Below the pieces are notes generated by a model, which saw nothing but the letters and a program-made list of their open reading frames with translations, did no database searches and had not been told where the DNA came from. A DNA stretch of 64,000 bases from Candidatus Aquidulcis sp. (GTDB lineage: Bacteria > Chloroflexota > Anaerolineae > UBA4142), in NCBI GenBank assembly GCA_020723345.1, contig DYJA01000002.1, forward strand, positions 137,544 to 201,543, given 5' to 3'. Below, piece after piece: positions 32,262-57,218 of this stretch. Position numbers and translations under genes: made by a program. Position 1 is the stretch's first letter; each line of letters opens with the position of its first letter.

Positions 32262-32468
32262 CCGCGGGGGAGAATTCCAAGTTGGCTCAAAAAAAACTTG
32301 GATACCGAAGGGGCAAGCCAGATAGTTGCCAAACCGTTTGGCGAATCTCTCAGGTCACGGGACCCCGCAGAAATTTTCTCTGGAAAGTTGGACCCGCTGT
32401 AGCGTCCAACGCCGATGGGGCAAGCCGCGCGGATTTACGGCGAATCTCTCAGGCGATCCAACAGAGAA
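32262..32468 (+). promoter_or_regulatory. Tandem glycine riboswitch (two aptamers)
   Basis: Aptamer 1: GGGGGAGAA...ACCGAAGGGGCAA...AATCTCTCAGGtcacGGGACcccgc. Aptamer 2: CTCTGGAaAG...GCCGAtGGGGCAA...AATCTCTCAGGCgatccaACAGAG. Both match the class consensus cores and sit upstream of the glycine-cleavage genes. Confidence 0.9.
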
Positions 32469-37390: not shown

Positions 37391-38662
37391 GTGTACGCCA
37401 CGTCTCAAGAATTAGAACTATCGGCGATCTACGCGAGCGATCCGGAAATCGCGGCGGTGATCGAGCGCGAACGCACGCGACAAAAAGAAGGATTGGAACT
37501 GATCGCTTCCGAAAACTACGCGAGCCGCGCGGTGTTGGAAGCAGTCGGTTCGGTGCTGACGAACAAGTACGCCGAAGGTTATCCGGCGAAACGCTATTAC
37601 AACGGCTGCGGCTTCGTTGATCAAGCCGAAACGCTCGCGATTGAACGCGCCAAGCAACTGTTCGGCGCGCCGCACGCGAACGTACAGCCGCATTCCGGAT
37701 CGCAAGCGAATATGGGCGCGTACTTTGCGCTGATTCAGCCCGGCGACACCGTGCTCGCGATGAGTCTCGCGCAGGGCGGACATCTCACGCACGGCGCGCC
37801 GGTGAACTTGTCGGGACAACTTTACAACTTTGTCGGCTACGGTGTGAACAGGGAAACCGAGATGCTCGACTATGCCGAGATCGCGCGGCTCGCCGAACAA
37901 CATCGTCCGAAACTGATCGTCGCGGGCGCGACCGCGTATCCGCGCGTAATTGATTTTGCAAAACTGCGCGAGATTGCAAATCACGTCGGCGCGAAATTGA
38001 TGGCGGACATCGCGCACATCGCTGGACTGGTTGCCGCCGGAGTTCATTCCAGCCCGGTGCCGGTCGCCGATGTTGTGACAACGACCACGCACAAAACGTT
38101 GCGCGGTCCGCGCGGCGGCATGATTCTCTGCACTGTGGAATACGCCAAGGCAATCGACAAAGCAATCTTCCCAGGAATGCAAGGCGGTCCGCTCGAACAT
38201 GTGATCGCCGGGAAAGCGGTCGCGTTACGAGAAGCGCAGCAACCGTCGTTCGTCGCGTATCAAAAGCAAGTACGCGCGAACGCGCGCGCGTTGGGCGCGC
38301 AACTGCAAGCGCGCGGCTTGCGGATCGTCTCCGGCGGGACGGACAACCATTTGATCCTGGTAGACTTGACATCCAAGGGCGTGACTGGCAAAGACGCGGC
38401 GAACGCGCTGGAGAGCGTCGGGATCACGTGCAACAAGAATCTGGTGCCGTTCGATCCACTTCCGCCGAAAGTGACGAGCGGCATTCGACTGGGCACGCCG
38501 GCGTTAACGACGCGCGGCATGAACGAAAACGATTTGTGCCAGGTCGCCGATTGGATCGCCGATGTGGTTTCCGATTTGAGTGACACGGCGCGGCACGAAC
38601 GCGTGCGAAAAGCAGTTGTTCAATTCGCCACGCGCTTTCCGATGCCGGGAGTAGATTCATAG
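37391..38662 (+). CDS. glyA: Serine hydroxymethyltransferase (canonical)
   Basis: [44 protein letters not shown] start. Confidence 0.95.
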
Positions 38663-41786: not shown

Positions 41787-44000
41787 CTATCTCGTGGCGC
41801 AACGGAATCCCACGGTGGAGAGCTTGAGTTCTGGTGTACCCCAAGCGCGGTATGCACTGCGCGTGAGCAGCTTGCTAGCCTGCCACGATCCACCACGTAG
41901 AACACGACTGTCACCCGACGAAGGCCCTGTTGGGTTACTCTTTGGAGAAACAGGATAATAGTCGATGCTATACCTATCTGCGACCCATTCAAACACATTC
42001 CCAGCCATATCCATTACGCCATACGGGCTTACTCCGGTTGAGAAACTTCCCACAGCCGTAGTGTCTCCTGGTCCATTTTCGATAAAGTTCAGTTTGCTTG
42101 GATCAAAAGCATCCCCCCATGGATAGATTCTGCCATCAGATCCACGAGCAGCCTTCTCCCACTCAGCTTCGGTCGGCAAGCGTTTACCGGCCCACTCGCA
42201 AAATGACCTCGCATCGTTCCACGATACCCAGATTACCGGATAATCATCAAACTGAGTATTCCCATAATAAGAATTCCGTGTGTTCGATCTACTTAGCCAA
42301 GGGATGGAACACTTGCCACTGTCCACGCATTTCCTGTACTGCACATTTGTCACCAAGAACTTTTCTATCCAATATGCGTCTAGGTACGGTGTGTGTGGAG
42401 GCTTCTCGTTATCCCAACCGTCATTGCTTCCCATCGTAAATTCTCCGGCAGGGACGAACATCATTGGCGCATTGCCAATCACACGCTCTTCGCCAGATCT
42501 TGGCGTAGGTGGAGGCAATTCTCGAGCTGCTATAGTTCCAATTGCTTGAGCCGTTGCAAGCAAATTCAGCGTAGGAGTACCGGGTAATGGTGGACTAAAT
42601 GTTAGTCGATTTTCGGGAGAGGGCTGTGGTTTGGGAGTCGGATTTTGAGCCACCGATGTCTGATAGGCAGCACTCCATTCCACGGCATCCTGTGCCAGTC
42701 TCGTTGATTTTGCACTCACATCAAGTGCATAAATCACAAGCGCCATCACGATGAAAAAAAGTACCAAACCAGCGACAAGCCCAATTCTGGCTAACCTTCT
42801 CGAACGTGCAAAGCGCCATTCCTCATTGGATATCTGAATTGAATGGATAAATCGATCGTGTGTAAGCTCATACCAACGCGCACCCGCGCGCAATTCCGCT
42901 CGGATGAGGTGTTGGTTTTCCAATACATCCACGGCAGCATTGGGAATTCCTTCGGTTCGTTCTTTGCCACGGAACACTGTTCCACGGGTATCCGCCGGTG
43001 TAACAAGATGCCGTTCGAACCAATTGCGCAAGTCTCTCTCACCAACTCGCGTTTCTTTTGCCGTCGTTTTAACTGCACGTTCGTAAAAACCCTTCAGTGC
43101 TTCACCTACATTGCCGAAAGCTTTGAGGTGATCAATTGTAATAATCTTTGTATCCGGCGGCAGATCAATCCAGAGGTTCTGACAGATGACTTGCAATTGT
43201 ACTGGTTCGACAAACTCACCCGTCGCTTCTATTATCTCACCCCGCGCACTCTCTACTTTGATCTTTAGCAATTCCTGTACCAATTCATGGGCAACCCCTG
43301 ATGCAAACGAGCGTCCTACGCTTATTACTGGCCGTTCGACAGCTAACGTTGCTGGCTCGGCACGCAACAACTCTAGACGAAAACGGTTACGCAATTGGTC
43401 AGGCATAGCGCGGGCATATGGATCCAAGCTAGCCAGACAATCCTCACGCATTACGAACAGTACGCGCAACAATGGATCCGCCTCGAGTGCCCCAGCTACC
43501 TGATGAAAGAACCCTTCTCTTTCCCTCCAGCGCTCTGGATAGAAAGCAAATAGTTCCTCAAACTGATCAAAGATGATGACGCGCGGCAAAGGTAGCCCTT
43601 GCCGATCCGTTGGATGAGCGCGCTCTCTTAGAAAAGCTGAAATGGATAAGGAACCTAGCAAGATTGACTCCGGTCTATCCTCCAGCCAACTCATCAAAGT
43701 ATTGACGACATAGATATTCATTGTCTCGCGGACATCTGATCCTTCGCGAACGAGTCCGCGCATACGCGCCACTGGCAAGACCTCGAACCCTTCAGCTCGG
43801 AGTGCAGGAATAAGGCCGGCATTCAACAACGACGTTTTACCTGCGCCTGATTGAGCGTAGATAAGCACAACCCGATGGGCCGTGACGAGAGAGGCCAGCT
43901 CTAATATCTCGCGATCACGCCCGAAGAACAAATTCTGCTCGTTTGATTCGAATGGACGCGGACCAGGGTAGGGGATGCGGAAATTGGGTTCAGCGCTCAT
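41787..44000 (-). CDS. STAND-like P-loop NTPase, single TM helix, Pro-rich linker and FGE-sulfatase (SUMF1-fold) domain lacking the catalytic cysteines
   Basis: YPGPRPFESNEQNLFFGRDRE, Walker A YAQSGAGKTSLLNAGLIPAL, Walker B RVIIFDQFEELF, FVMREDCLASLD. TM IGLVAGLVLFFIVMALVIYAL preceded by RFARSRRLAR. C-terminal WVSWNDARSFCEWAGKRLPTEAEWEKAARG, GNVFEWVADRY, RVLRGGSWQASKLLTRSAYRAW, GFRCA. Confidence 0.85.
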   Translation of the reverse strand: MSAEPNFRIPYPGPRPFESNEQNLFFGRDREILELASLVTAHRVVLIYAQSGAGKTSLLNAGLIPALRAEGFEVLPVARMRGLVREGSDVRETMNIYVVNTLMSWLEDRPESILLGSLSISAFLRERAHPTDRQGLPLPRVIIFDQFEELFAFYPERWREREGFFHQVAGALEADPLLRVLFVMREDCLASLDPYARAMPDQLRNRFRLELLRAEPATLAVERPVISVGRSFASGVAHELVQELLKIKVESARGEIIEATGEFVEPVQLQVICQNLWIDLPPDTKIITIDHLKAFGNVGEALKGFYERAVKTTAKETRVGERDLRNWFERHLVTPADTRGTVFRGKERTEGIPNAAVDVLENQHLIRAELRAGARWYELTHDRFIHSIQISNEEWRFARSRRLARIGLVAGLVLFFIVMALVIYALDVSAKSTRLAQDAVEWSAAYQTSVAQNPTPKPQPSPENRLTFSPPLPGTPTLNLLATAQAIGTIAARELPPPTPRSGEERVIGNAPMMFVPAGEFTMGSNDGWDNEKPPHTPYLDAYWIEKFLVTNVQYRKCVDSGKCSIPWLSRSNTRNSYYGNTQFDDYPVIWVSWNDARSFCEWAGKRLPTEAEWEKAARGSDGRIYPWGDAFDPSKLNFIENGPGDTTAVGSFSTGVSPYGVMDMAGNVFEWVADRYSIDYYPVSPKSNPTGPSSGDSRVLRGGSWQASKLLTRSAYRAWGTPELKLSTVGFRCATR

Positions 44001-44878
44001 TTCCCAAGCCCTTCCCAGCGGTCAAACAACTCGGCGGTGAATTCCTTCGCAGTACCCCAATACACGCGGACATTAATCCCCCCAAAGTAATCCGTCAAGT
44101 ATTTCTGTGCGCTTTTCCCTTCTGCCACACTACTGGGCGGTAACTGAACGGCAACACTGATTCGGCGCAAGCTCGATTCCATTGATGTAACCAGACCACG
44201 GAACAGGACTCGAAAATCCCAATCAGCCAAACGATATCCGATGAAAAGCAATGAAGCTCCAGTAAGTGCCTCCTGGATGCGTGGGGGAAGTAAGTTGTGA
44301 TCCTTGGAAATACTTACTAGAAAATCGAGATAGTCATCCTCGGTGAGAACGAGAGATTCAGGAACCTCGTTGTGTCCATGCAGGTGGTAGACAACAGGAT
44401 TGGCGGGAGTAGGACGAAAACCAACGACGGAGTCGAAAACAGATGGACGACCTCTAAGGAAACTATTCCAACAACATAGCTCACGGCGAGGGTCTCTGTG
44501 CTGACTAACAAGTGCCCGAACCATAAAGTCATCGTAATTGGTTGTCATGTAGATCGGAAGCGGGAGCTTGGCAAGTATTGTATGTGGCTCGTCAGACGCA
44601 GCGAAATCAGGTAACCCGATATTCTTAAATGACCCAAGGAGTTGTTCCTTCGGGAACATTGAATCGTGGGTAGAGACAGCAAGAAACTGAGCGACACGTG
44701 CGAGATCGGAAGAATCTTCAAGGGGGTACTTGTATTGCCTGGCCCATTTTTGAGCAATCTCTGAACCAAGAGGAAGAACACCATAGGCAACACCAGCTCC
44801 CAGGAAGGGAGTGCATTTACCTTGTTGAATTCTTGCCAGCAGAATTTGCCAATCCTGTTCGCTCAAGGTTTCGGCCAT
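43997..44878 (-). CDS. SIR2-like (SIR2_2-type) protein, candidate NAD-consuming effector
   Basis: CTPFLGAGVAYG, IYMTTNYDDFMVRAL, VVYHLHGH, LVLTEDDYLDFL, SLLFIGYRLADWDFRVLFRGL. GGAGG RBS. ATGA overlap with the downstream NTPase gene. Confidence 0.85.
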   Translation of the reverse strand: MAETLSEQDWQILLARIQQGKCTPFLGAGVAYGVLPLGSEIAQKWARQYKYPLEDSSDLARVAQFLAVSTHDSMFPKEQLLGSFKNIGLPDFAASDEPHTILAKLPLPIYMTTNYDDFMVRALVSQHRDPRRELCCWNSFLRGRPSVFDSVVGFRPTPANPVVYHLHGHNEVPESLVLTEDDYLDFLVSISKDHNLLPPRIQEALTGASLLFIGYRLADWDFRVLFRGLVTSMESSLRRISVAVQLPPSSVAEGKSAQKYLTDYFGGINVRVYWGTAKEFTAELFDRWEGLGK

Positions 44879-45130
44879 CCGAATCCTCCCCGGGTTCTAG
44901 CCCTACAGAACGAGCACCTACCGCCAACGCGCGCTAGCGCGTCAAACGACAGGTGCTTTGACCTTCCGTAAAGGACTTTCGGTTTCAGGTAACAACGTCC
45001 CACGAGCAATCATCTCTTCGCCCCTCCTCCAGAGCGAATTGAGATTATTCCAATGCAGGGACAAATACGAAATCTACCGAACCAATTATACCATGAATGT
45101 CAAGAAAAATCGCGCGTTTGATGATTGCGA

Positions 45131-45424
45131 TCAGACGGCAAGCGGGGAAGCCACAATTTCGGGTCGCCACTCGACTTGTTGAATCGTGCGAACGCGTTTT
45201 TGCATTTTGACGTACACCACGGGGCTATCGGCGGGGCGGGGCGCGGCGTTAGCCATTGCGATGTTGGCGCGATTGAATTCAGGGTCGTCAGCATCCAGAA
45301 AAATCAGCATCGCCTTGTCGGGGATATGATCCAGAATCTCTGGCGCGGCGAACACATATTGATTGAATTGTTCGGTTAACTCAAAAGTCTTATCGGCGAT
45401 TTGTTGCGGCGTCAATTTTTCCAT
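45131..45424 (-). CDS. Small conserved hypothetical protein (97 aa; possibly DUF5647-like)
   Basis: MEKLTPQQIADKTFELTEQFNQYVFAAPEILDHIPDKAMLIFLDADDPEFN. Family assignment is from memory only. Confidence 0.55.
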   Translation of the reverse strand: MEKLTPQQIADKTFELTEQFNQYVFAAPEILDHIPDKAMLIFLDADDPEFNRANIAMANAAPRPADSPVVYVKMQKRVRTIQQVEWRPEIVASPLAV

Positions 45425-45481
45425 CGTAAATACCTCTCAATGTACAATTGGTGATTCAGGCGCAAGTAATTGGTGTCAGCC

Positions 45482-46222
45482 CTAATGCTCTTGAGCCCGG
45501 CGTAGATTGCTCTGCGCCGGATCGGAAAAGCGGAGGAACGTTTCAGTCGCATGCCCCAGGTCGGAATAATAGCCGCGATAGGCGGGCGGTAGCAGCGTCG
45601 CCATCTGATACATGATCTCGTCGACGATCTGTCGCCGGACTTGACGCGTCACTGTGGTTCCATTCACATTCAGATTAAACGGATTGCCCACCACGATGTG
45701 AAAATCGGTGCGGCGCAGACGCTTGAAGTTGTGCTTGAAAATTTCATATCCATAGCATGCCATCGGCAGCACCGGCGCGCCGCTGTGGAGCGCGAGCGTC
45801 ACGACGCCGGGATGCGCGCGTTGGAGTTGCCCATTTCCGCTGCGCGTGCCTTCGGGCGCGACCCCCAGGATGCAACCGGCTTGCAGCGCGTCCAAACCTT
45901 TCCGCAATGCCGCGACGTCGGCTTCGCCGCGCCGCAACGGAATCGCGTTGTAGAGCGTGAACAAAGGACCCAGGAACGGATGATCCCAGGTTTCGACTTT
46001 GCTGAACCCGGCAATCGGACGCGGCTGCAAGTGCGTAAAGACCACCGGCACATCGAGAAAGTTGACGTGATTCGCCACCAAGATTAGGGGACCGCGCTCC
46101 GGCACGCGCGCCAATTGCGCCGCGTCGACGCGGCAAAGTACGTGCGTCAGTCCCTTGACGATTTGACTGACGATCCAACCGGTTAAAGTCACGGCGTTCC
46201 CTCTCCCGAAAATGTAGGACAA
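45482..46222 (-). CDS. plsC: 1-acyl-sn-glycerol-3-phosphate acyltransferase
   Basis: LVANHVNFLDVPV (H-x4-D), GVAPEGTRSGNG. The ORF-track TTG start lies inside a REP-like hairpin, so the real start is probably a downstream GTG. Confidence 0.85.
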   Translation of the reverse strand: MSYIFGRGNAVTLTGWIVSQIVKGLTHVLCRVDAAQLARVPERGPLILVANHVNFLDVPVVFTHLQPRPIAGFSKVETWDHPFLGPLFTLYNAIPLRRGEADVAALRKGLDALQAGCILGVAPEGTRSGNGQLQRAHPGVVTLALHSGAPVLPMACYGYEIFKHNFKRLRRTDFHIVVGNPFNLNVNGTTVTRQVRRQIVDEIMYQMATLLPPAYRGYYSDLGHATETFLRFSDPAQSNLRRAQEH

Positions 46223-46241
46223 ATTTGCAAATCTGTCCTAC
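46214..46241. repeat. REP-like hairpin GTAGGACAAATTTGCAAATCTGTCCTAC
   Basis: GTAGGACA/TGTCCTAC stem. Same family as 12358 and 32125. Confidence 0.8.
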
Positions 46242-46263
46242 GTTCGCCCACGGATAAATTTCG

Positions 46264-46326
46264 TCCACGAAGGACACGAAGGGACACGAAGAATTTTTCC
46301 TTCGTGATCTTCGTGCCCTTCGTGGA
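46264..46326. repeat. Hairpin of cacgaagg units
   Basis: tccacgaaggacacgaagggacacgaag-aattttt-ccttcgtgatcttcgtgcccttcgtgga. Same unit family as 49003-49066. Confidence 0.8.
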
Positions 46327-46352
46327 TTATTTTTTGTGGGTTACGGTTCAAG

Positions 46353-47279
46353 TTACGGAGATAGAGTTACAATCTCGATCTGGCGCGGCACGAGTTCCAG
46401 CGTCAACTGTTTTGCTTCGACGCAGAGTGTCTCGCCGTCAATGTGCGCGGGCAAAACGCCGTCGAGCGCGGTGACGACGACGCGCCGCGCTTGCGCGATT
46501 TTGACGGCTGGGTCAGTCGCTTGCGTCCCTTGCAAAAATTTTGGAATGAGCGCGAGAATTTTCGCGCGGCTCACTTGCCGCGCGATCGTCAGATCGAACA
46601 AGCCGTCGTCGCTTTTGCCGCGCGGCGCCATCTTGAATCCGCCGCCCAAGCGTCTGCCGTTCATCGTCGAGACCATCAGCGCGCGCTGCGTGATCGTTTC
46701 GCCGTTGTATTCAATCTTCACGAGTGGCGCGCGATAGTACAGAAAAATCGTTTTCAACGCGGCGACGATGTATGACGGAAAGCCGCTCAGTCGTTTCATC
46801 TTGACCGCGACGAAACCAACCACCGCGTCAAAGCCGATGCCGACGCCGTTGCCAAAGTATCGTCCCGCCGGATACAAGCCGCCGGTCGCCAGACCAACGT
46901 CAATCACGCGCCGCCGATCTTGCGCGAGCACACGGCAGCCCTCCGCGAGATCGCGCGGCACATCCACGCCGAACGCGAAATCGTTGCCGCGACCGACGGA
47001 CAGCGCGCCCATCGCGACATTGGCGATGCCCGCGCGTTTCGCCAGCATCAAGCCATTCAAAACTTCGTTCGCAGTACCGTCGCCGCCGACGGCGACCACC
47101 ACATCGAAACCGCGCGCGGCGGCTTGCTGCGTCAATTCCGCCGCGTGCCAGGGACGCTCGGTGAGGACAATATCGAAATCCAAACGATGCTCGCGCAACA
47201 ATTGCTCAATCGTCGTGACGGCGCGTCCGCCTGCGCCGCGACCTGAGGTGGGATTGACGATGATCTTGTATCGGCTCAT
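46353..47279 (-). CDS. Diacylglycerol kinase-family lipid kinase (YegS/BmrU-like)
   Basis: YKIIVNPTSGRG, VVAVGGDGTANEVLNG, LSVGRGNDFA. Confidence 0.9.
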   Translation of the reverse strand: MSRYKIIVNPTSGRGAGGRAVTTIEQLLREHRLDFDIVLTERPWHAAELTQQAAARGFDVVVAVGGDGTANEVLNGLMLAKRAGIANVAMGALSVGRGNDFAFGVDVPRDLAEGCRVLAQDRRRVIDVGLATGGLYPAGRYFGNGVGIGFDAVVGFVAVKMKRLSGFPSYIVAALKTIFLYYRAPLVKIEYNGETITQRALMVSTMNGRRLGGGFKMAPRGKSDDGLFDLTIARQVSRAKILALIPKFLQGTQATDPAVKIAQARRVVVTALDGVLPAHIDGETLCVEAKQLTLELVPRQIEIVTLSP

Positions 47280-47322
47280 TCCTTTGTTGCCTCGCGAGAG
47301 TTGTGCTACAATGCCGCCGTCG

Positions 47323-47829
47323 CTATTTGACTTCTATTTGCGACGGCGTTCTTACTTCCATTTCGAGTGTGCCGCGATAACTTGCGATCTTTCCCGTGAC
47401 GCAGATCGTTTTGCCGCGGTACAAAGTTTCGGGCGCGGAGGGAAAATTCGCGCGCTGATTGCCCCAAATCAAAACGCTGAACCGCGCGGGATCGGGGTAC
47501 GCGCGTCCGAGGTCGAGATAGGTTGGTTGCCCGTTCGTGGTTTGCGCGAAGGTTGTGCGGAGGACGGGTCCGCAAACAATCTTGGTTTGATTCAAGTAGT
47601 TGCCGGCGTCACTCCAGGAAATCGTTTCAGTTCCGGGGGAAATACTCGTCGGCGCGAGGGTTGGCGCGGAGGCGATAGGTGTCGCGATGGCAGCGCGTGG
47701 GGTTTGCGCGGGCGCAACGGGCGTTGCCGTAATTACCCACGGCGTCTGCGTGGGCGGAACTGGGGTCGGGTTGGTAACACATCCGATCAGAACGATTGCC
47801 AAAATCGCTAGCGCGGTCGCGGGTTTCAT
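47323..47829 (-). CDS. Lipoprotein with Pro/Thr-rich linker and OB-fold-like C-terminal domain
   Basis: AAAGGAGGG RBS before MKPATALAILAIVLIGC (lipobox). C-terminal LYRGKTICVTGKIASYRGTLEMEV. Confidence 0.75.
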   Translation of the reverse strand: MKPATALAILAIVLIGCVTNPTPVPPTQTPWVITATPVAPAQTPRAAIATPIASAPTLAPTSISPGTETISWSDAGNYLNQTKIVCGPVLRTTFAQTTNGQPTYLDLGRAYPDPARFSVLIWGNQRANFPSAPETLYRGKTICVTGKIASYRGTLEMEVRTPSQIEVK

Positions 47830-47997
47830 CGGACTCCCTCCTTTGGGAAGATGTGTGTTCGTTTGTGTACCCGATTGGATTATACCGCAAGTTGGAGGTC
47901 GAATCAAATGACGAAACAAAGGATGAAGGACGAAGGCAGAAGGATGAAGACTGAGACGATCAATTCGTCTCGCATCTTTTCGAAGGAGAAGAAATAG

Positions 47998-48378
47998 ATG
48001 TCGCGTGAAACTTGGAGTGTAAACTTGTATTTGCTGAATTGCGCGCTTTTATTCACGCACGAAATCGATTCCGCGTTTTGGAAAGAGTGGGATTTGTTCG
48101 GTATTCCCGGCGGCATTCAGGTTTTTCTCGTTCTCAATTTCTTGCTGCTGCTCGTCGCGCTGTACGGGTTTCAGCAAGTTGTCCTGGGAACGAAAACCGC
48201 GCGTGTGTTTTCGCTGCTACTCGCCGCGGCGGGCGTGTTCGCGTTTGACGTCCACTTGTTTTTTATCGCGACAGGACATCCCGAATTTACATTGCCCGCC
48301 TCGATTGCCGTGTTGGTTGCGACGCTGATCGTGTCGCTCGCGCAAGGATTTCTCGCGTTGCGCGAAATGCGAAGGTAG
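47998..48378 (+). CDS. Small membrane protein (4 TM; DUF6713-like)
   Basis: LYLLNCALLFTHEIDSAFWKEWDLF followed by three further hydrophobic helices. Confidence 0.7.
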   Translation: MSRETWSVNLYLLNCALLFTHEIDSAFWKEWDLFGIPGGIQVFLVLNFLLLLVALYGFQQVVLGTKTARVFSLLLAAAGVFAFDVHLFFIATGHPEFTLPASIAVLVATLIVSLAQGFLALREMRR

Positions 48379-48488
48379 CGCAAGAAACGCAAGGGACACA
48401 GATGAACGCAGATGAACACAGATCAAACTAGAAATCATTGTTCTTGTTTTCTTCGTGTTCATCGCGCCTTTCGTGGACAGAGTTCTTA

Positions 48489-48947
48489 ATGGGAAATATG
48501 AAAACGCAGTACGATATCCGCCGCATCACCGCCGCCGAAACGCGCCAACTGCGCCAGCAAGTTTTGCGCCCGAAGCGGCGTCCCGAAGAGCAAGTTTACC
48601 CGAACGACGACGTGCCGGACGCGCTGCACACCGGCGCGTTTCACGACGGTAAATTGGTCGGCATCGCGACTGTGTTCCGCGACGCGCCGCCGGGCGAAAC
48701 GCAGCCGCGCGCGTGGCGTCTGCGCGGCATGGCAGTTCTGCCCGAAATGCAAGGGCAGGGCGTCGGGCGCGCGCTCGTCGAGTTTTGCGTCGCGCACATT
48801 CGCGCGCACGACGGCGATGTGCTGTGGTGCAACGGGCGCACCTCCGCGCGCGCGTTCTACGAGTCGGTTGGGTTCCGCGCGACCGGCGCGGAATTCGATG
48901 TGCCGGTAAGCGGCGCGCATTTTGTGTTCCGGCGCGATTTGTTGTAG
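48489..48947 (+). CDS. GNAT-family N-acetyltransferase
   Basis: RLRGMAVLPEMQGQGVGRALVEF (acetyl-CoA loop), NGRTSARAFYESVGF. Start set at MGNMKT. The stop TAG is part of the following element. Confidence 0.85.
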   Translation: MGNMKTQYDIRRITAAETRQLRQQVLRPKRRPEEQVYPNDDVPDALHTGAFHDGKLVGIATVFRDAPPGETQPRAWRLRGMAVLPEMQGQGVGRALVEFCVAHIRAHDGDVLWCNGRTSARAFYESVGFRATGAEFDVPVSGAHFVFRRDLL

Positions 48948-49084
48948 GGGCGAAACATTCGCCAAATCCTGTTGGTGGGCAATAGACTTGCGGGAATAAT
49001 TTGTCCACGAAGGACACGAAGGAGCACCAAGTTTTTTCTTCGTGTTTCTTCGTGCTCTTGGTGGACGAATGTTTTGCCCTTACA
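48945..49084. repeat. Composite element: GTAGGGGCGAAACATTCGCC...CGAATGTTTTGCCCTTAC with a nested cacgaagg hairpin
   Basis: Outer inverted repeat plus inner hairpin gtccacgaaggacacgaaggagcaccaag-ttttttc-ttcgtgtttcttcgtgctcttggtggac (49003-49066). Confidence 0.8.
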
Positions 49085-49085
49085 T

Positions 49086-49115
49086 TTGACAACCGCCCGC
49101 CTTCTGCAATACAAT
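49086..49115 (+). promoter_or_regulatory. Promoter candidate for the NTPase-WD40/SIR2 operon
   Basis: TTGACA, 18-nt spacer, TACAAT; about 40 nt before GTG 49158. Confidence 0.45.
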
Positions 49116-49157
49116 ACGGTCGTGCGATGACAGCCGAAACCTGGCAAGGATGGCAGC

Positions 49158-51917
49158 GTGAATGATTCCCCAAATCCGCACGTCCCAGATTGTCCCTACG
49201 TCGGCTTGCAACCATACTCCGAAGCCGAACGCGAATACTTTTTCGGTCGCGAGCAAGACACCGAAACGATTGCCGCGAACTTGCTCACCGCGCCGCTGAC
49301 GTTGCTTTACGGCGCGAGCGGCGTCGGCAAAACGTCCGTGCTTGCGGCAGGCGTTGTGCCGTACTTGCGCGCGATGCCTGATGTACTTGTTGTTTTGTTT
49401 CGGCAGTGGCAGGACAGCACGTTTCAAGATGTGCTGATGAACGACGTTGATACAACGGTCTACTACTCAAGAGCCAAACTGCTGAGTAATAGGACACCGC
49501 TTCCGTTCGACGAATTCCTCGCGCGCGCGGCGCAAGAAACCAACCGCACGCTCCTCATCATCCTTGATCAGTTTGAAGAGTATTTTCTCTATCACCCTAA
49601 CGGAAATCCGTTCGAGGAGCAACTCGCGCGTGCGATCAATAGGGGCGACGTGAACGCAAATTTCATTCTCTCCATGCGCGAGGACGCGCTCTCACAACTC
49701 GACCGCTTTGAAACACGGATTCCCAACTTGATGAGCAACTATTTGCGCTTGGAGCATTTGGACCGCGCTGGTGCAGGGCGCGCGATTCGCAAGCCGCTGG
49801 ATGTGTACAACGCGCGCCGAACTGACGCGTCCCCGATAACGATCGAAGACGCGCTGGTGGATGCGTTGATTGAGCAAGTTCGCACGGGACGCGTGACGCT
49901 GGGGCGCGCAGGGCAAGGCGAAATTGCCGTAATGCAATCCGCCGACACGCGCGATACGCGCATTGAGGCGCCCTTTCTGCAAATGGTCTTGACTCGTCTC
50001 TGGGAGGAAGAAACTCGTGCCGGCGCGCGCAACCTTAGACTTGCAACCTTGAACCTCCTTGGTGGCGCTGAAAAAATCGTGCGAACGCATCTGGACGAAG
50101 TAATGAACAGATTGCGCGCGCCGGAGCAAGAAGTTTGCTCCACCTTCTTCGACCGATTGGTCACGCCGTCGGGCACCAAGATCGCGCAGAACGCCGACGA
50201 CCTGGTGACGTATGCTGCGCGTTCCGCTGCTCAAGTCACTCCCATTCTCAAGAAACTTGCCGACGCGCGCGTCCTGCGTCCGATTGCGCCGCCGCTGAAT
50301 CAGCCCCAGGTCGCGCGCTATGAGATTTTTCACGATGTGATTGCGCCTGCGATTCTGGATTGGCGCAGACGTTTCGTTGATCGCAAGCGCGTTCGTCGCT
50401 TGGGATTGATTACGCTGGGGGCTGTTTTGCTCGTGGTGGTGTTCAGTTTGTTGTCGCTCTTTGCGTTCCAGCAAATGTTGAATGCGCAGGATGCCGAGGG
50501 GCGCGCGATTGTTCAACGCAACGCAGCGGCTACTTCGGAAGCGCGTGCGGTAACGCAGGAAGCGAGCGCATACCAGCAACGCGCCGAAGCGCAGAATCAG
50601 GCAAACGCGCGGGCTACGGCGGAAGCGCAGGCATTGGTTCAACGTGATGCGGCAGAGAAATCCAAGGGTGAAGCGCTCACTCAACAAAAGATCGCCTTTT
50701 CGCGTGAATTGGCGGGGATAGCGCTCGCGCGATTGCCTGTTGACCCAGAACAAAGTCTGCTCTTGGCTCTCCATGCCGCCGAGATTTCTCCGACTGAACA
50801 GGCAGAGGACGCCTTGCGCCAATCATTGCGCGGGTATGCTTTGCGTGCTGCATTGCGCGGGCACACTGCTAGTGTGTATGCTGGATTCAGCCCGGACGGC
50901 AAATTCATCGTCACGGCAAGTCTAGACAATACGGCGCGTGTGTGGGAGACGAGCACAGGCAAGAGTATCGTTGAACTGCGTGGGCACACCGGTCAGGTGC
51001 GAAGCGCCCAATTTAGTCCCGACGGCAAATTCATTGTCACGGCGAGTCAAGATGGAACCGCGCGGGTTTGGGAGGCGAGTACCGGTAAAAGTATCGCCGA
51101 ACTGCGTGGACATACTGCGACCGTGCGCCATGCCGTGTTCAGCCCGGATGGCAAGTTCGTCGTCACAGGAAGCAATGACTACACAGCGCGCATTTGGGAA
51201 GCCAGCACAGGCAAGAACATCCGGGAACTGCGTTGGCACGGGAGTTCTTTGAGCGGCGTGGCATACAGTCCCGACGGCAAATCTATTGTTACGGTGAGCT
51301 CAGGCGCGGGCGCGCGGATTTGGGAAGCGAGTACAGGCAGAGGTATCTCGGAACTACGCGGGCACACGAAATCCATAAATAGCGTCGCGTTTAGTCCCGA
51401 CGGCAAATTTATTGTCACCGCGAGTTCGGACAATACGGCGCGCGTGTGGGAAACAAGCACAGGCAGGAATATTGCGGAATTGCAGGGGCACACGGATGTC
51501 GTACGAAGCGCGACATTCAGTCCTGATGGCATGTTCGTCGTCACTGGCAGTTCGGATAACACAGCGCACGTGTGGGAGGCAAGCACAGGCAAGAGTATTA
51601 TGGAATTGCGCGGACATACGGGGTACGTGACTATTGCCGCATTTAGTCCGGATGGCAAGTTCATCGTGACAGTCAGTAGAGATGGAACCGCGCGGGTGTG
51701 GGAGGCAAGCACAGGGAGAGGCATCGCGGAACTACGCGGACACACCACTGAAATCAATAGTGTTGAATTCAGTCCCGATAGTAAATTCATTCTCACCGGG
51801 AGCGCTGATTTTACCGCGCGGCTATGGGAGGCGAATAGCCGCGACAGTATTATAGTATTCCTTCGCAGAAACTATCACGACCGCGAAGATTCTTGGGACA
51901 CAGATGAACACAGATAA
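49158..51917 (+). CDS. STAND-like P-loop NTPase, single TM helix, Ala/Gln-rich coiled coil and 8 WD40 repeats
   Basis: CPYVGLQPYSEAEREYFFGREQD, Walker A YGASGVGKTSVLAAGVVPYL, Walker B LLIILDQFEEYF, ILSMREDALSQLD. RRRFVDRKRVRR then TM LGLITLGAVLLVVVFSLLSLFAF. Eight LRGHT...FSPDGK...TARVWE units. The ORF terminates inside a hairpin repeat. Confidence 0.85.
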   Translation: MNDSPNPHVPDCPYVGLQPYSEAEREYFFGREQDTETIAANLLTAPLTLLYGASGVGKTSVLAAGVVPYLRAMPDVLVVLFRQWQDSTFQDVLMNDVDTTVYYSRAKLLSNRTPLPFDEFLARAAQETNRTLLIILDQFEEYFLYHPNGNPFEEQLARAINRGDVNANFILSMREDALSQLDRFETRIPNLMSNYLRLEHLDRAGAGRAIRKPLDVYNARRTDASPITIEDALVDALIEQVRTGRVTLGRAGQGEIAVMQSADTRDTRIEAPFLQMVLTRLWEEETRAGARNLRLATLNLLGGAEKIVRTHLDEVMNRLRAPEQEVCSTFFDRLVTPSGTKIAQNADDLVTYAARSAAQVTPILKKLADARVLRPIAPPLNQPQVARYEIFHDVIAPAILDWRRRFVDRKRVRRLGLITLGAVLLVVVFSLLSLFAFQQMLNAQDAEGRAIVQRNAAATSEARAVTQEASAYQQRAEAQNQANARATAEAQALVQRDAAEKSKGEALTQQKIAFSRELAGIALARLPVDPEQSLLLALHAAEISPTEQAEDALRQSLRGYALRAALRGHTASVYAGFSPDGKFIVTASLDNTARVWETSTGKSIVELRGHTGQVRSAQFSPDGKFIVTASQDGTARVWEASTGKSIAELRGHTATVRHAVFSPDGKFVVTGSNDYTARIWEASTGKNIRELRWHGSSLSGVAYSPDGKSIVTVSSGAGARIWEASTGRGISELRGHTKSINSVAFSPDGKFIVTASSDNTARVWETSTGRNIAELQGHTDVVRSATFSPDGMFVVTGSSDNTAHVWEASTGKSIMELRGHTGYVTIAAFSPDGKFIVTVSRDGTARVWEASTGRGIAELRGHTTEINSVEFSPDSKFILTGSADFTARLWEANSRDSIIVFLRRNYHDREDSWDTDEHR

Positions 51918-52850
51918 ACACAGATAGAAAAATCAGTGTTCATCAGTGTTTATCAGTGTCCAAAAGATTTGGTTGCGGCTATGCTGCGCTATGGATCTGC
52001 GCGGACATACAAGTAAGATCCGGAGCATCGTGTTCAGCCCAGATGGAAAATCTCTCGTGACCGCAAGCGAGGACAACACCGCCCGAGTATGGGAAGCAAG
52101 CACAGGCGCGAGTATCCTTGTATTGAGTGGGCATAAGGGTTTCTTGCGGAGTGTTGCCTACAGTCCCGAGGGCAAGTTCATCGTCACCGCGAGTGGAGAT
52201 TCGATAGCGCGGGTGTGGGAGGCGAGTACAGGTAAGAGTATCCTGGAACTGCGCGGACACACAAAAGATGTTCGCAGCGCCGCGTATAGCCCCGATGGCA
52301 AGTTCATCGTCACCGCAAGCATAGATGGGAGTGCGCGCGTGTGGGAGGCAGGCACAGGTAAGGGAATCATGGAATTGCGGGGGCACGGTATCCATAGCGT
52401 CCTCAACGCCGCGTTCAGTCCGGATGGCAAGCGCATCGTCACGGCGGGCTGGGATGGCATCGCGAAGGTGTGGGAGACAAGTACAGGCAAGAGCACAATC
52501 GAATTGCGCGGACATACACTAGGTTTATACAGCGCCACATTCAGTCCGGATGGCAAGTTGATTGTTACTACCAGTGTGGACGGAACTGTACGGATATGGG
52601 AAGCCAGCACAGGCAAGAGCGTCATCGAATTGCACGCGCACGCAGGTGATTCGCACAGCGCCGCATTCAGTCCTGATGGGAAATATGTCGTCACTGTAGG
52701 TTTGGACGGAAACGCGAGGGTATGGGAGACTAGCACCGGCAAACACATCGTCGAAATATCTGAGGCGACTGCCATATTCAGCGCCGTCTTCCATCCCGAA
52801 GGCAAGTTAATCGCGACTGCAAGTAGCGATGGCGTTGCGCGCATTTACGT
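50853..52850 (+). repeat. Tandem 126-bp (42-codon) WD40 coding repeats, 15-16 units across two ORFs
   Basis: Units LRGHTxxVxSxxFSPDGKFIVTASxDxTARVWEASTGKSIxE are highly similar at the DNA level. Differences cluster just after GHT and around S-x-D-x-T. Confidence 0.85.
51896..51961. repeat. Hairpin of cacagat units interrupting the WD40 array
   Basis: ggacacagatgaacacagataaacacagatag-aaaaa-tcagtgttcatcagtgtttatcagtgtcc. Near-identical core to 57152-57218. Confidence 0.85.
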
Positions 52851-53028
52851 CTGTGAGGTGTGTGCTCCATTCCAAGACCTTATCGCGCTTGCACGCACGC
52901 GCATCACGCGCGAGTTCATGTGCGAAGAGCGGCAAAGGTATTTGCACGAAAATATTGTCTGCTCAACGCCAACGCCAATCCTAACTCAAACTCCAGAGCC
53001 CCCGCAGACAATAACGCCTGGTAGGTGA
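51946..53028 (+). CDS. WD40-repeat protein (7 repeats), probably the detached C-terminal part of the preceding gene
   Basis: The first ATG lies inside the hairpin. The recognisable sequence starts DLRGHTSKIRSIVFSPDGK. No signal peptide or TM. An alternative start is ATG 51991. Confidence 0.7.
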   Translation: MFISVQKIWLRLCCAMDLRGHTSKIRSIVFSPDGKSLVTASEDNTARVWEASTGASILVLSGHKGFLRSVAYSPEGKFIVTASGDSIARVWEASTGKSILELRGHTKDVRSAAYSPDGKFIVTASIDGSARVWEAGTGKGIMELRGHGIHSVLNAAFSPDGKRIVTAGWDGIAKVWETSTGKSTIELRGHTLGLYSATFSPDGKLIVTTSVDGTVRIWEASTGKSVIELHAHAGDSHSAAFSPDGKYVVTVGLDGNARVWETSTGKHIVEISEATAIFSAVFHPEGKLIATASSDGVARIYVCEVCAPFQDLIALARTRITREFMCEERQRYLHENIVCSTPTPILTQTPEPPQTITPGR

Positions 53029-53032
53029 TCTT

Positions 53033-53980
53033 ATGCCCGAACCACCTTATGGTATCATTGTCAACCAATTGAAACAAGGGAACGTCATTCCCTTCCTCGG
53101 CGCGGGCGCGTCGTTGAGCGGACGTCCGGTGGACGCGAAATGGAACGACAAGACCGCCGCGTTTCTTCCAACCGGCAGAGAACTCGCGCACCAACTCGCC
53201 GAGGATTCCAGTTTGCCGTCCACAGAATCGTACGACCGCGATGATCTCTCCAAAGTTTCGTCGTACTACGCCGAAGTCGCCGCAAACCGCGCCGACTTGA
53301 TCGGCTGTCTGCATCAAACGCTTGACCGCGATTATCAGATCGGCGCGATCCACCGTTTTCTCGCAGACGCCGACGTGCCGCTTCTCATCGTCACGACGAA
53401 TTACGATGATCTGATCGAGCGCGCGTTTCAGGCAAAGGGTAAACCGTACCATCTCGTCGCGTATCCCACCGATCACAAAGAACTCGCGGCAGCGGTATTG
53501 TGGTGGAAGCCCGGCGCAGCCGACCCCGAAGCGCACGCGCCCAAATCGCTTCCGCTCTCGCTCAGCGATACGACCATCATCTACAAGATGCACGGCACGG
53601 TGGATCGGCAAGCGAACAAGTGGGATTCGTACGTCATCACCGAAGAAGACTATGTGGACTTTCTCGCGCGGATGACGGGGCAGACCGCGATCCCCGCGCG
53701 CTTGATGCTCGAATTTCGCAAGCGGCGTTTTCTCTTTCTCGGCTACGGTCTGCGCGATTGGAACCTGCGCGTGATGCTGCGTCACCTCAAAAGCGCACTC
53801 GCCACAACCGAAACGACCGCGCCGCTAACCGATGCGGGCGAGGATTTGCGCTCGTGGGCGATCCAGCGCAATCCATCGGAGTTGGAACGCGCGCTGTGGC
53901 TTGCGCGCAAGGTGAACATTTACGATCTGGAGATTGACGCGTTCGTCGGCAAGTTGCGCGAGAAGATGGGCATTGCGTAG
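53033..53980 (+). CDS. SIR2-like (SIR2_2-type) protein, paralogue of 43997-44878
   Basis: VIPFLGAGASLSG, LLIVTTNYDDLIERAF, IIYKMHGT, YVITEEDYVDFL, RFLFLGYGLRDWNLRVMLRHL. Starts 4 nt after the WD40 stop. Confidence 0.85.
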   Translation: MPEPPYGIIVNQLKQGNVIPFLGAGASLSGRPVDAKWNDKTAAFLPTGRELAHQLAEDSSLPSTESYDRDDLSKVSSYYAEVAANRADLIGCLHQTLDRDYQIGAIHRFLADADVPLLIVTTNYDDLIERAFQAKGKPYHLVAYPTDHKELAAAVLWWKPGAADPEAHAPKSLPLSLSDTTIIYKMHGTVDRQANKWDSYVITEEDYVDFLARMTGQTAIPARLMLEFRKRRFLFLGYGLRDWNLRVMLRHLKSALATTETTAPLTDAGEDLRSWAIQRNPSELERALWLARKVNIYDLEIDAFVGKLREKMGIA

Positions 53981-57151: not shown

Positions 57152-57218
57152 GGGACACCGATGTACACAGATAAACACAGATAGAAAAATCAGTGTGCAT
57201 CAGTGTTTATCCGTGTCC
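57152..57218. repeat. Hairpin of cacagat units (second copy)
   Basis: gggacaccgatgtacacagataaacacagatag-aaaaa-tcagtgtgcatcagtgtttatccgtgtcc. Contains the stop and last 3 codons of gene 57207-57770. Confidence 0.85.

What the first reader, a model, noticed from the sequence alone, without database searches (positions are those of the whole stretch)
41787..53980. Two variants of one module within 12 kb: conserved NTPase and SIR2 core, swapped C-terminal sensor domain, swapped gene order, contrasting base composition
Both loci share the NTPase core, the TM anchor and a SIR2-like partner, and differ only in the C-terminal domain (FGE-sulfatase fold versus WD40 propellers). This kind of modular sensor swapping on a constant switch-plus-effector chassis is typical of NLR/STAND immune repertoires. 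The orientation, gene order and apparent G+C differ: copy 1 looks AT-richer by eye, though I did not compute it. That argues against a recent local duplication and for independent acquisition or long divergence. The genes between the two copies (small hypothetical, plsC, lipid kinase, lipoprotein, membrane protein, GNAT) are ordinary housekeeping genes and do not look like a classical defence island.
Basis: inference. Interest (0 to 1): 0.7.

Follow-up and report, generated by a model that had tools for sequence, protein, structure and literature searches.

The report
Two membrane-spanning STAND–SIR2 sensor modules
The window carries two anciently diverged copies of a widespread but uncharacterised two-gene cassette: a membrane-spanning ATPase switch with a swappable outward-facing sensor, plus an NAD-destroying SIR2 enzyme; one copy was acquired recently and the other is split by a small insertion.

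Summary
Copy 1 (41787-44878, minus strand) is SIR2 followed by nSTAND1 NTPase, one TM helix and an FGE-sulfatase-like domain. Copy 2 (49158-53980, plus strand) is nSTAND1 NTPase, TM helix, WD40 repeats and then SIR2.

The shared parts are only 25-29% identical. Each copy belongs to a separate, large SIR2+nSTAND1 lineage. Across 88 gene pairs from other genomes, NTPase and SIR2 distances correlate (Mantel r=0.94), and every NTPase clusters with its partner's SIR2 family. This is paired inheritance, not local duplication.

Copy 1 is a compositional outlier (GC 0.50 against 0.58; GC3 0.46 against about 0.71; codon-adaptation z about -7.5). Copy 2's SIR2 is host-like and syntenic with relatives.

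- Copy 2's NTPase-WD40 gene is split by a 139-bp insertion carrying a palindromic repeat.
- The usual order in both lineages is SIR2 then NTPase, so copy 2's order is the unusual one.
- The TM helix and the positive-inside rule place the sensors outside the cell.

The most likely function is an outside-in sensor triggering SIR2 NAD+ depletion. That step is inferred. The theme is known (Kaur et al. 2021), but this split-gene, membrane-spanning variant was not found described.

The parts
43997..44878 (-). SIR2_1: 293-aa stand-alone SIR2-like protein (family 1), the first gene of copy 1
   Evidence: PF13289 at E 2e-24. PADLOC matches only the ThsA SIR2 domain, at 4e-18. PFLGAG, TNYDD, HG and TEDDY motifs are invariant in the 29-sequence alignment A2. 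Nearest solved folds are ThsA, KomC, DSR2 and Avs5. GC3 is 0.459 and the CAI-like index 0.38.
41787..44000 (-). NTPase1: 737-aa protein with nSTAND1 NTPase, TM helix, Pro/Thr-rich linker and FGE-sulfatase-like domain. Its start overlaps the SIR2_1 stop by 4 bp.
   Evidence: PF20703 at E 4e-37 and PF03781 at E 1e-58. Walker A SGAGKTS and Walker B DQFEE are present. The AF2 model of aa 1-460 has pLDDT 88.8.
42840..43973 (-). nSTAND1 NTPase core of NTPase1 (aa 10-387)
   Evidence: The model shows a P-loop domain, a helical domain and a winged helix (strands 366-371 and 374-379).
42723..42779 (-). Transmembrane helix of NTPase1 (aa 408-426), lying within a continuous predicted helix spanning aa 383-452
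   Evidence: Kyte-Doolittle 19-residue maximum is 2.95. There are 5 K/R residues on the N-side and 2 on the C-side. The long helix is seen in the model.
41796..42467 (-). FGE-sulfatase-like (C-type-lectin-fold) domain of NTPase1 (aa 512-735), predicted extracytoplasmic and non-catalytic
   Evidence: PF03781. Alignment to human FGE (PDB 8aru, 1y1e) shows that both catalytic cysteines are replaced.
49158..51917 (+). NTPase2: 919-aa ORF with nSTAND1 (aa 13-395), TM helix (aa 417-435; 50406-50462), coiled-coil linker and eight WD40 units. It is the 5' part of an interrupted gene.
   Evidence: Residues 1-900 are colinear with residues 1-901 of the intact 1239-aa orthologue in L003.
51858..51996 (+). 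139-bp insertion that shifts the frame and introduces a stop inside the WD40 array. It contains an imperfect palindromic repeat element of about 65 bp (about 51896-51961).
   Evidence: Joining NTPase2 aa 900 to WD40b aa 18 restores a seamless WD40 unit that matches L003. The element recurs at 48398 and 57157, where 0 matches are expected by chance. As RNA it folds into a hairpin with dG -31.7 and z -8.2.
51946..53028 (+). WD40b: 360-aa ORF, the 3' remainder of the interrupted NTPase-WD40 gene (about seven WD40 units plus a Cys-rich tail)
   Evidence: Residues 7-339 align with residues 889-1218 of the L003 orthologue. This exact protein is not in the 15-billion-protein collection.
53033..53980 (+). 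SIR2_2: 315-aa stand-alone SIR2-like protein (family 2), downstream of the NTPase in copy 2
   Evidence: PF13289 at E 3e-27. It is 90% identical to P0124, which lies next to intact NTPase-WD40 genes in L002 and L003. GC3 is 0.722 and the CAI-like index 0.66, both host-like.

Best explanation
The window holds two members of a widespread, self-contained two-gene cassette. One gene encodes a stand-alone SIR2-type enzyme, predicted to be an NADase. The other encodes an nSTAND1 P-loop NTPase whose winged-helix end runs through a single transmembrane helix into a variable domain outside the cytoplasm: WD40, TPR, a lectin-like FGE fold or others.

The two copies belong to two anciently separated lineages in which SIR2 and NTPase are inherited together. 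Copy 1 (SIR2 then NTPase-TM-FGE) is a recent horizontal arrival from a lower-GC donor. Copy 2 (NTPase-TM-WD40 then SIR2) is resident and syntenic with relatives. It has a derived gene order, a fast-evolving sensor, and an NTPase gene now split by a 139-bp palindromic-repeat insertion.

Proposed mechanism (inferred):
1. The outward-facing domain binds an extracytoplasmic ligand, such as a phage particle or receptor-binding protein, an envelope-damage product or a foreign cell-surface molecule.
2. The signal passes along the rigid helix across the membrane.
3. The cytoplasmic NTPase exchanges nucleotide and oligomerises.
4. The oligomer recruits and activates the partner SIR2, which depletes NAD+ and arrests or kills the cell.

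Shown here: domain content, intact catalytic motifs, membrane topology signals, pairing and co-evolution, compositional foreignness of copy 1, and disruption of copy 2. Inferred: the ligand, activation by oligomerisation, NADase activity and a defence role.
For: Domains and motifs:
- Walker A SGxGK[ST]S and Walker B DQFEE are invariant in 88 of 88 NTPases.
- The SIR2 motifs PFLGAG, TNYDD, HG and TEDDY are invariant across both families.
- SIR2_1 matches only NADase-type defence sirtuins (ThsA, KomC, DSR2, EfAvs5) by sequence and by fold.

Pairing:
- 78 of 80 genome loci found with a SIR2 alignment have an nSTAND1 ORF directly downstream on the same strand.
- 67 of 70 informative metagenome loci of family 2 do the same.
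- No third gene recurs among 114 neighbours.

Co-evolution:
- Mantel r is 0.94, 0.67 and 0.85 for all pairs, family 1 and family 2.
- Nearest-neighbour family congruence is 88 of 88. P-distance is about 0.49 within a family and 0.73-0.76 between families, for both proteins.

Topology:
- One TM helix follows the core in 66-70 of 78 complete NTPases.
- K/R residues are enriched on the NTPase side in 72 of 81.
- The AF2 model shows the winged helix continuing into one long helix that contains the TM segment.

Sensor properties:
- C-terminal domains are swapped among close NTPase relatives.
- The FGE domain lacks the catalytic cysteines.
- Against the L003 orthologue, the copy 2 sensor is 40-55% identical while the NTPase core is 80-92% and SIR2 about 90%.

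History of the two copies:
- Copy 1 looks foreign by composition and codon usage, whereas modules in other genomes match their flanks.
- Copy 2 is syntenic with L002 through the downstream class II aminoacyl-tRNA synthetase.
- The interruption of copy 2 is documented.
Against: - No experiment links this cassette to phage defence.
- The NTPases hit no PADLOC model convincingly.
- Neighbourhoods are not defence islands.
- No relative occurs in 2.9 million viral contigs.
- The SIR2_1 model is only moderate in quality (pLDDT 62.8, with the catalytic-His region below 50), so NADase as opposed to deacylase activity is not settled.
- The best fold matches of the NTPase core are ORC/Cdc6 and other AAA+ proteins at low TM-scores, not solved STAND or NLR proteins.
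- About 10% of complete family members lack a detectable TM helix.
- Topology rests on hydropathy and the positive-inside rule only.
- The Mantel correlation is partly inflated by shared organismal phylogeny.
- Copy 2 may be non-functional.
Confidence: 0.6

Rival explanations
1. The cassette is a transmembrane signalling or self/non-self recognition device rather than an antiviral system. The outside domain would sense envelope state, neighbouring cells or environmental polymers. The SIR2 would act in regulated cell death, dormancy or allorecognition within filaments or biofilms, or as a protein-modifying regulator.
For: - The flanks are housekeeping genes with no defence genes, here and in 29 other genomes.
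- There are no viral-contig relatives.
- The SIR2 is unusually conserved (55-80% identity across phyla).
- The WD40 units are highly regular, with variation concentrated at a few positions. From my own knowledge, this recalls fungal HET-type NLR repeats.
- The extracytoplasmic position of the sensor suits cell-surface cues.
Against: - The nearest solved SIR2 relatives are all antiphage NADases.
- Sensor swapping, patchy cross-phylum distribution including archaea, multiple paralogous copies per genome and horizontal transfer are hallmarks of conflict systems.
- The published interpretation of nSTAND1-FGS proteins is counter-invader sensing (PMC8195603).
Confidence: 0.25
2. Only copy 1 is a working system. 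Copy 2 is a decaying pseudogene, so the locus is not a functional two-receptor repertoire.
For: - The 139-bp insertion carries an in-frame stop and a +1 frame shift inside the WD40 array.
- Orthologues in L002 and L003 have a single ORF of 1223 or 1239 aa.
- WD40b has no TM helix or signal peptide, so it could not reach the outside on its own.
- The exact WD40b product is absent from the protein collection.
Against: - The truncated 919-aa product keeps the NTPase, the TM helix and eight WD40 units, enough for one propeller.
- SIR2_2 is intact, with all catalytic motifs and host-like codon usage.
- There are no further stops in either ORF.
- An assembly error cannot be excluded from a single sequence, although the insert is a repeat family member found at two other sites.
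Confidence: 0.4
3. The two modules arose by local duplication of one ancestral module within this genome, followed by divergence and domain replacement.
For: They lie 4.3 kb apart and share the same overall architecture.
Against: - The shared parts are 25-29% identical.
- Each copy is 60-90% identical to partners in other phyla or samples.
- Each NTPase groups with its own SIR2 family in 88 of 88 cases.
- GC3 is 0.46 for copy 1 against 0.72 for SIR2_2.
- Copy 2 is syntenic with relatives that lack copy 1 nearby.
Confidence: 0.02
4. Copy 1's FGE-like domain is a target of a diversity-generating retroelement (DGR), as described for other nSTAND1-CLec proteins, making it a hypermutating antigen receptor.
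For: nSTAND1 proteins with C-terminal FGE/CLec domains are reported DGR targets in multicellular bacteria (PMC10907252; PMC8195603). The domain is non-catalytic.
Against: No template-repeat-like copy of the 3' 714 bp of the gene exists anywhere in the 64-kb window (best off-target hit 37 bp, E 0.13). The Pfam-scanned ORFs flanking the finding (about 30-64 kb) include no reverse transcriptase. The rest of the genome could not be searched.
Confidence: 0.1

Closest known systems
nSTAND1 NTPase-FGS (FGE-sulfatase-fold) conflict systems of Kaur, Iyer, Burroughs & Aravind, eLife 2021 (PMC8195603); Pfam PF20703
   Same: Same NTPase clade: PF20703 scores 129-154 bits against a 27-bit cut-off. Copy 1 has the same NTPase-then-FGS order. 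The paper also notes several paralogous copies per genome with different partners, and an NAD+-targeting effector class.
   Different: The described systems carry an N-terminal effector or effector-associated adaptor domain (EAD) on the NTPase, and treat FGS as an intracellular sensor often linked to a DGR. Here the NTPase starts at residue about 10 with no EAD. The effector is a separate SIR2 gene with no shared adaptor. A TM helix puts the sensor outside the cell. No DGR is present in the window. In a text search that paper mentions SIR2 once, in a different system.
Avs5 / AVAST type 5 (SIR2-STAND fusion; solved EfAvs5 helical structure, PDB 9jap)
   Same: It combines a SIR2 NADase-type domain with a STAND-type NTPase switch and a C-terminal sensor. 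The SIR2_1 model matches the EfAvs5 SIR2 (E 1e-6).
   Different: Avs5 is one cytosolic polypeptide with SIR2 at the N-terminus and a helical-repeat sensor. Here there are two genes, an nSTAND1 core, a TM helix and WD40 or FGE sensors predicted to be outside the cell. No PADLOC Avs model hits either NTPase.
Thoeris ThsA (SIR2-SLOG NADase)
   Same: It is the closest SIR2 by sequence (PADLOC ThsA 4e-18 and 4e-20; PDB 7uxt at 9e-11) and by fold (8bto at E 2.5e-10). The catalytic Asn and His motifs are conserved.
   Different: There is no SLOG ligand-binding domain (the proteins are 293 and 315 aa, SIR2 only) and no ThsB/TIR gene next to either copy. Activation would come from the NTPase, not from a cyclic ADPR signal.
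DGR-diversified STAND-CLec 'antigen sensors' of multicellular bacteria (Dore et al., PNAS 2024, PMC10907252)
   Same: Both involve an nSTAND1 or NACHT NTPase with a C-terminal C-type-lectin/FGE-fold domain. That paper already notes that some targets are predicted to be periplasmic.
   Different: No template repeat was found in the window, and no reverse transcriptase among the Pfam-scanned ORFs flanking the finding. SIR2 does not occur in that paper's text.
Fungal and bacterial NLR-like STAND proteins with highly regular WD40 repeats (HET-E type; own knowledge)
   Same: An NTPase switch is followed by a long array of near-identical WD40 units whose variation is concentrated at a few positions. 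The sensor also evolves faster than the core.
   Different: Those proteins are cytosolic NACHT or NB-ARC proteins with fused effectors. Here the core is nSTAND1, the protein spans the membrane and the effector is encoded separately.

Membership tests
nSTAND1 (PF20703) STAND-type NTPase | Match to the family profile above the curated threshold | tested here: met
   129.2 and 154 bits against a 27.1-bit cut-off, covering profile positions 1-343 of 379.
nSTAND1 (PF20703) STAND-type NTPase | Intact P-loop (Walker A) and Walker B motifs | tested here: met
   SGAGKTS and SGVGKTS; DQFEE. These are invariant in 88 of 88 SIR2-linked homologues.
nSTAND1 (PF20703) STAND-type NTPase | NTPase domain followed by a helical domain and a winged helix, then a C-terminal repeat or sensor region | tested here: met
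   The AF2 model (pLDDT 88.8) shows an alpha/beta core, helical bundles and a beta-hairpin wing at aa 366-379. The C-terminus carries FGE or WD40.
nSTAND1 (PF20703) STAND-type NTPase | Structural proximity to solved STAND/NLR proteins | tested here: inconclusive
   The top Foldseek PDB hits are ORC/Cdc6 and other AAA+ ATPases (E 3.5e-8, TM 0.3-0.4). No APAF-1, NLR, Avs or MalT appears in the top 50.
SIR2_2 (PF13289) / defence-type SIR2 NADase | Profile match, plus the NAD-binding GAG loop and the catalytic Asn and His | tested here: met
   86.6 and 96.1 bits against a 24.5-bit cut-off. PFLGAG, TNYDD (N114, D116) and HG (H167) are invariant in A2.
SIR2_2 (PF13289) / defence-type SIR2 NADase | NAD+ hydrolysis rather than protein deacylation | not testable with these tools
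   Only similarity to ThsA, KomC, DSR2 and Avs5 is available.
Thoeris | ThsA with a SLOG domain, plus an adjacent ThsB TIR gene | tested here: not met
   The SIR2 proteins are 293 and 315 aa with no second domain. No TIR gene lies in 41-54 kb.
Avs5 / AVAST (antiviral STAND) | A single polypeptide with an N-terminal effector fused to the STAND core, and a match to Avs profiles | tested here: not met
   The genes are separate. The NTPases begin directly with the NTPase domain. No Avs model is hit in PADLOC.
EAD-coupled NTPase-FGS conflict system (Kaur et al. 2021) | A matching effector-associated adaptor domain on both the NTPase N-terminus and the effector | tested here: not met
   The nSTAND1 profile starts at residues 10 and 13. 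The SIR2 domain fills the whole effector protein. No shared N-terminal module was seen.
DGR target gene | A variable repeat at the 3' end of the CLec/FGE domain, with a nearby template repeat and a reverse transcriptase | tested here: not met
   No repeat of 41787-42500 occurs elsewhere in the window. The rest of the genome is not available.
Defence island resident | Neighbouring genes enriched for known defence families | tested here: not met
   The window flanks are glycine-cleavage, lipid-metabolism, GNAT, aminoacyl-tRNA synthetase and transporter genes. Among 114 neighbours in 29 genomes, no PADLOC family recurs beyond two generic kinase hits.

The most novel reading that the evidence does not exclude
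The SIR2 + nSTAND1-TM-sensor cassette is a widespread family of prokaryotic 'outside-in' innate immune receptors, with thousands of homologues in at least ten bacterial phyla and in Methanosarcina. A STAND switch would read an extracellular WD40, TPR or lectin-like sensor across the membrane and answer with NAD+ depletion. In logic this resembles a Toll-like receptor more than the cytosolic NLR-like Avs proteins. It would allow detection of phage, or of foreign cells, before genome entry.
Probability: 0.35. Interest if true: 0.8.

Novelty: new variant of a known kind. Interest (0 to 1): 0.55.

Why it matters
Known bacterial STAND and NLR-like immune sensors (Avs, bNACHT) are cytosolic and recognise phage proteins after injection. 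Here the STAND switch is separated from its sensor by a membrane helix and is paired in trans with a SIR2 enzyme. If that arrangement works as proposed, it would show that prokaryotes can couple surveillance of the extracellular or envelope space to NAD+-depletion immunity. It would also provide a compact two-gene, naturally modular chassis for studying transmembrane activation of a STAND ATPase.

The window itself gives a tidy natural comparison. It holds one freshly acquired module, and one resident module with a rapidly diverging sensor that has just been hit by a small mobile repeat.

Tried and rejected
- **Source genome and further copies.** The genome-contig scan returned 80 loci, but the best was only 71% identical, so the source genome is not among the species representatives. 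Exact-sequence look-ups gave no names and only a 6.3-kb Logan contig. HMMs of both families found no third copy in the window.
- **DGR.** No template repeat was found.
- **Mobile-element signatures around copy 1.** There is no adjacent tRNA (the only tRNAs are at 8.5-8.7 kb), no flanking repeats were seen, and no integrase occurs among the scanned ORFs.
- **Viral carriage.** None was found in IMG/VR.
- **Curated names.** NCBIfam has no model reaching its cut-off for any of the four proteins. PADLOC matches only the generic ThsA SIR2 domain.
- **SIR2 structure.** The model is of moderate quality only (pLDDT 62.8), so active-site geometry was not analysed.
- **A fused SIR2-nSTAND1 protein (P0025) as Rosetta-stone evidence.** It was not pursued, because the contig of the same length fetched through its SIR2 neighbour (L012) shows two separate genes.
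- **Literature.** Searches for this exact two-gene membrane-spanning system found nothing. The library is incomplete, so absence is not proof.

Full report
**Anatomy**

The interval 41787-53980 contains two gene sets of the same design.

Copy 1, on the minus strand:
- A 293-aa SIR2_2-domain protein at 43997-44878.
- A 737-aa protein at 41787-44000, overlapping the SIR2 stop by 4 bp. It carries an nSTAND1 NTPase (aa 10-387), one strongly hydrophobic helix (aa 408-426), a Pro/Thr-rich linker and an FGE-sulfatase-fold domain (aa 512-735).

Copy 2, on the plus strand:
- A 919-aa ORF at 49158-51917, with nSTAND1 (aa 13-395), a TM helix (aa 417-435), an Ala/Gln-rich coiled-coil linker and eight WD40 units.
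- A 360-aa WD40 ORF in another frame at 51946-53028.
- A 315-aa SIR2_2 protein at 53033-53980.

The NTPase cores are 29% identical (E 9e-23) and the SIR2s 25% (E 2e-21). HMMs built from homologues of each family find no further copy in the 64 kb.

**Composition**

- Copy 1 has GC 0.501. No window of equal size elsewhere in the sequence is as low (mean 0.578, minimum 0.514). Copy 2 has GC 0.565, which is unremarkable.
- GC3 is 0.46-0.47 in copy 1 against 0.70-0.77 in the neighbouring glycine-cleavage, lipid and GNAT genes.
- I trained a codon-adaptation index on 14 Pfam-confirmed housekeeping genes of the window. Copy 1 scores 0.37-0.38 (z about -7.5), SIR2_2 0.66 (z -0.6), NTPase2 0.52 and WD40b 0.45.
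- In ten other genomes the module's GC tracks its flanks. Copy 1 therefore looks like a recent import from a lower-GC donor.
- I found no tRNA, integrase or flanking repeat at its borders.

**Copy 2 is interrupted**

A protein 90% identical to SIR2_2 (P0124) sits directly downstream of a single NTPase-WD40 ORF of 1223 or 1239 aa in two other samples (L002, L003). The window's 919-aa ORF aligns with residues 1-901 of that protein, and the 360-aa ORF with residues 889-1218. Joining residue 900 of the first ORF to residue 18 of the second restores a seamless WD40 unit.

The intervening 139 bp (51858-51996) shift the frame and supply the stop codon. They contain an imperfect palindrome of about 65 bp. 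This element recurs in two intergenic places (48398 and 57157; none expected by chance) and folds into a long hairpin (dG -31.7, z -8.2). Copy 2 is thus either freshly inactivated or reduced to a one-propeller receptor.

Downstream synteny with L002, through the class II aminoacyl-tRNA synthetase, indicates that copy 2 is resident.

**The cassette is widespread and strictly paired**

- The NTPase1 core has more than 1400 detected homologues. The best 120 are 50-69% identical and carry WD40, TPR, FGE, LamG, Jacalin, PDZ, peptidase S24, TIR, collagen or CHASE2 C-termini.
- Each SIR2 belongs to its own large, well-conserved family: about 290-300 aa for family 1 and about 310-325 aa for family 2.
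- A genome scan with a SIR2 alignment returned 80 loci from Chloroflexota, Acidobacteriota, Planctomycetota, Desulfobacterota, Actinomycetota, Verrucomicrobiota, Thermotogota and Methanosarcina. In 78 of them an nSTAND1 ORF follows the SIR2 on the same strand, and a dozen or more have two SIR2 genes before the NTPase.
- A metagenome scan with family 2 gave the same SIR2-then-NTPase order in 67 of 70 loci that had room downstream.
- The canonical order in both families is therefore SIR2 then NTPase. The window's copy 2, together with its close relatives L002 and L003, is the exception.
- Two modules on one contig recur elsewhere (L009, L140, L170, L070, L076).

**Co-evolution**

For 88 adjacent pairs, p-distances of the NTPase cores and the SIR2 partners correlate. 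Mantel r is 0.94 overall, 0.67 within family 1 (n=69) and 0.85 within family 2 (n=19), each with p <= 0.001. Every NTPase has its nearest NTPase neighbour inside the same SIR2 family (88 of 88). Within-family and between-family distances are almost identical for the two proteins (about 0.49 and about 0.75).

Contigs that hold both families (the window and L009) pair each NTPase with the matching SIR2 family. This cannot be explained by organismal phylogeny. The two copies in the window are therefore deep paralogues of independent origin, not a local duplication.

**Biochemical signals**

- Walker A and Walker B are invariant across the 88 NTPases.
- The AF2 model of NTPase1 aa 1-460 (pLDDT 88.8) shows a P-loop domain, helical domains and a winged helix that runs directly into a 70-residue helix containing the TM segment.
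- The closest solved folds for this model are ORC/Cdc6-type AAA+ proteins at low TM-score. 'NLR-like' is therefore an architectural analogy rather than a demonstrated close relationship.
- The SIR2s keep the GAG loop, TNYDD and HG motifs. By sequence and fold they resemble only antiphage NADase sirtuins: ThsA, KomC, DSR2 and EfAvs5. The SIR2_1 model is only moderate in quality.
- The FGE-like domain has lost both catalytic cysteines of human FGE, so it is a binding module rather than an enzyme.

**Topology**

A single TM helix follows the NTPase in 66-70 of 78 complete family members. In 72 of 81 the K/R excess lies on the NTPase side (mean difference +2.7); the window proteins show 5 against 2 and 8 against 1. 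An ATP-dependent NTPase must be cytoplasmic, so the WD40, TPR and FGE domains are predicted to lie outside the membrane. Between the window and L003, the outside part is 40-55% identical whereas the core is 80-92% and SIR2 about 90%. That pattern is expected of a ligand-facing surface under diversifying pressure.

**Context**

The genes between and around the copies are housekeeping genes. Among 114 immediate neighbours in 29 other genomes, no PADLOC or Pfam family recurs. No relative is found in 2.9 million viral contigs. The cassette is self-contained and is not tied to defence islands.

**Comparison with what is known**

- nSTAND1 was named by Kaur et al. 2021 (PMC8195603). They described NTPase-FGS conflict systems with N-terminal effectors or adaptor domains, frequent DGR association, and several differing copies per genome.
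- Dore et al. 2024 (PMC10907252) showed DGR-diversified CLec domains on nSTAND1 or NACHT proteins, some of them predicted to be periplasmic.
- A 2026 preprint (PMC12803255) lists WD40 and FGE sensors among defence-associated STANDs.
- I did not find this particular arrangement described: a separate SIR2 gene without an adaptor, an nSTAND1 core, a membrane helix and an outside sensor. PADLOC and NCBIfam have no model for it.
- I therefore class it as a new variant of a known kind.

Noticed in passing
window 51896-51961; also 48394-48460 and 57152-57220: A family of imperfect palindromic repeats of about 65 bp (GGGACACAGATGAACACAGATAAACACAGAT...ATCAGTGTTCATCAGTGTTTATCAGTGTCC). They have a 10-bp internal period and form long bulged hairpins. 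Two copies are intergenic and one lies inside the 139-bp insertion that splits the copy 2 gene, so the family looks MITE- or REP-like.
   Followed up: partly
window 32257-32375 (+) and 32969-36229 (+): A glycine riboswitch aptamer (59 bits) lies upstream of a 1086-aa ORF that combines SHMT and GcvT (aminomethyltransferase) domains in one reading frame. A second, ordinary SHMT follows at 37391-38662, and then gcvPA and gcvPB.
   Followed up: no
window 9369-10640 (+), beside tRNA-His and tRNA-Arg at 8515-8743: This is the second low-GC patch of the window (GC about 0.48). It encodes a DUF4041 + T5orf172/MUG113 protein next to two tRNA genes, and may be another horizontally acquired gene.
   Followed up: partly
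L030, L032-L036, L057, L059, L066, L067, L076, L083, L085, L089: In Acidobacteriota, Planctomycetota and Verrucomicrobiota loci the cassette has two tandem, diverged SIR2 genes ahead of the NTPase (SIR2-SIR2-nSTAND1).
   Followed up: no
L009 (767-13197), L140 (5967-14804), L170, L070, L076: Two complete SIR2-nSTAND1 modules sit side by side on one contig. In L009 one module comes from each SIR2 family, mirroring the window.
   Followed up: partly
L002 11036-12271; L004, L005: In relatives of copy 2, a HicA/HicB pair and a DUF4160/DUF2442 pair lie between the SIR2 gene and the aminoacyl-tRNA synthetase gene. They are absent from the window, where that gap is only 560 bp.
   Followed up: no
window 50850-52900 (WD40 array): The 14 extracted 42-residue WD40 units are very regular (mean 58% aa identity, up to 81%; 63% at the nucleotide level). 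Variation is concentrated just after the GHT motif, around the conserved Asp of the next strand, and near the unit's end.
   Followed up: partly
window 49158-53980 compared with L003: Divergence from the orthologue is mosaic. SIR2 and the first 50 residues of the NTPase are about 90% identical, most of the core is 80-92%, and everything beyond the TM helix is 30-68% (mostly 40-55%). Codon adaptation falls in the same way, from 0.66 for SIR2_2 to 0.45-0.52 for the NTPase and WD40 ORFs. This suggests fast evolution or recombinational replacement of the sensor.
   Followed up: partly
L082, L084 (Methanosarcinaceae): These are the only two of the 80 genome loci without an adjacent nSTAND1 ORF. Their SIR2 reading frame is unusually long (about 1.6 kb), which may mean a fusion to another domain.
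   Followed up: no
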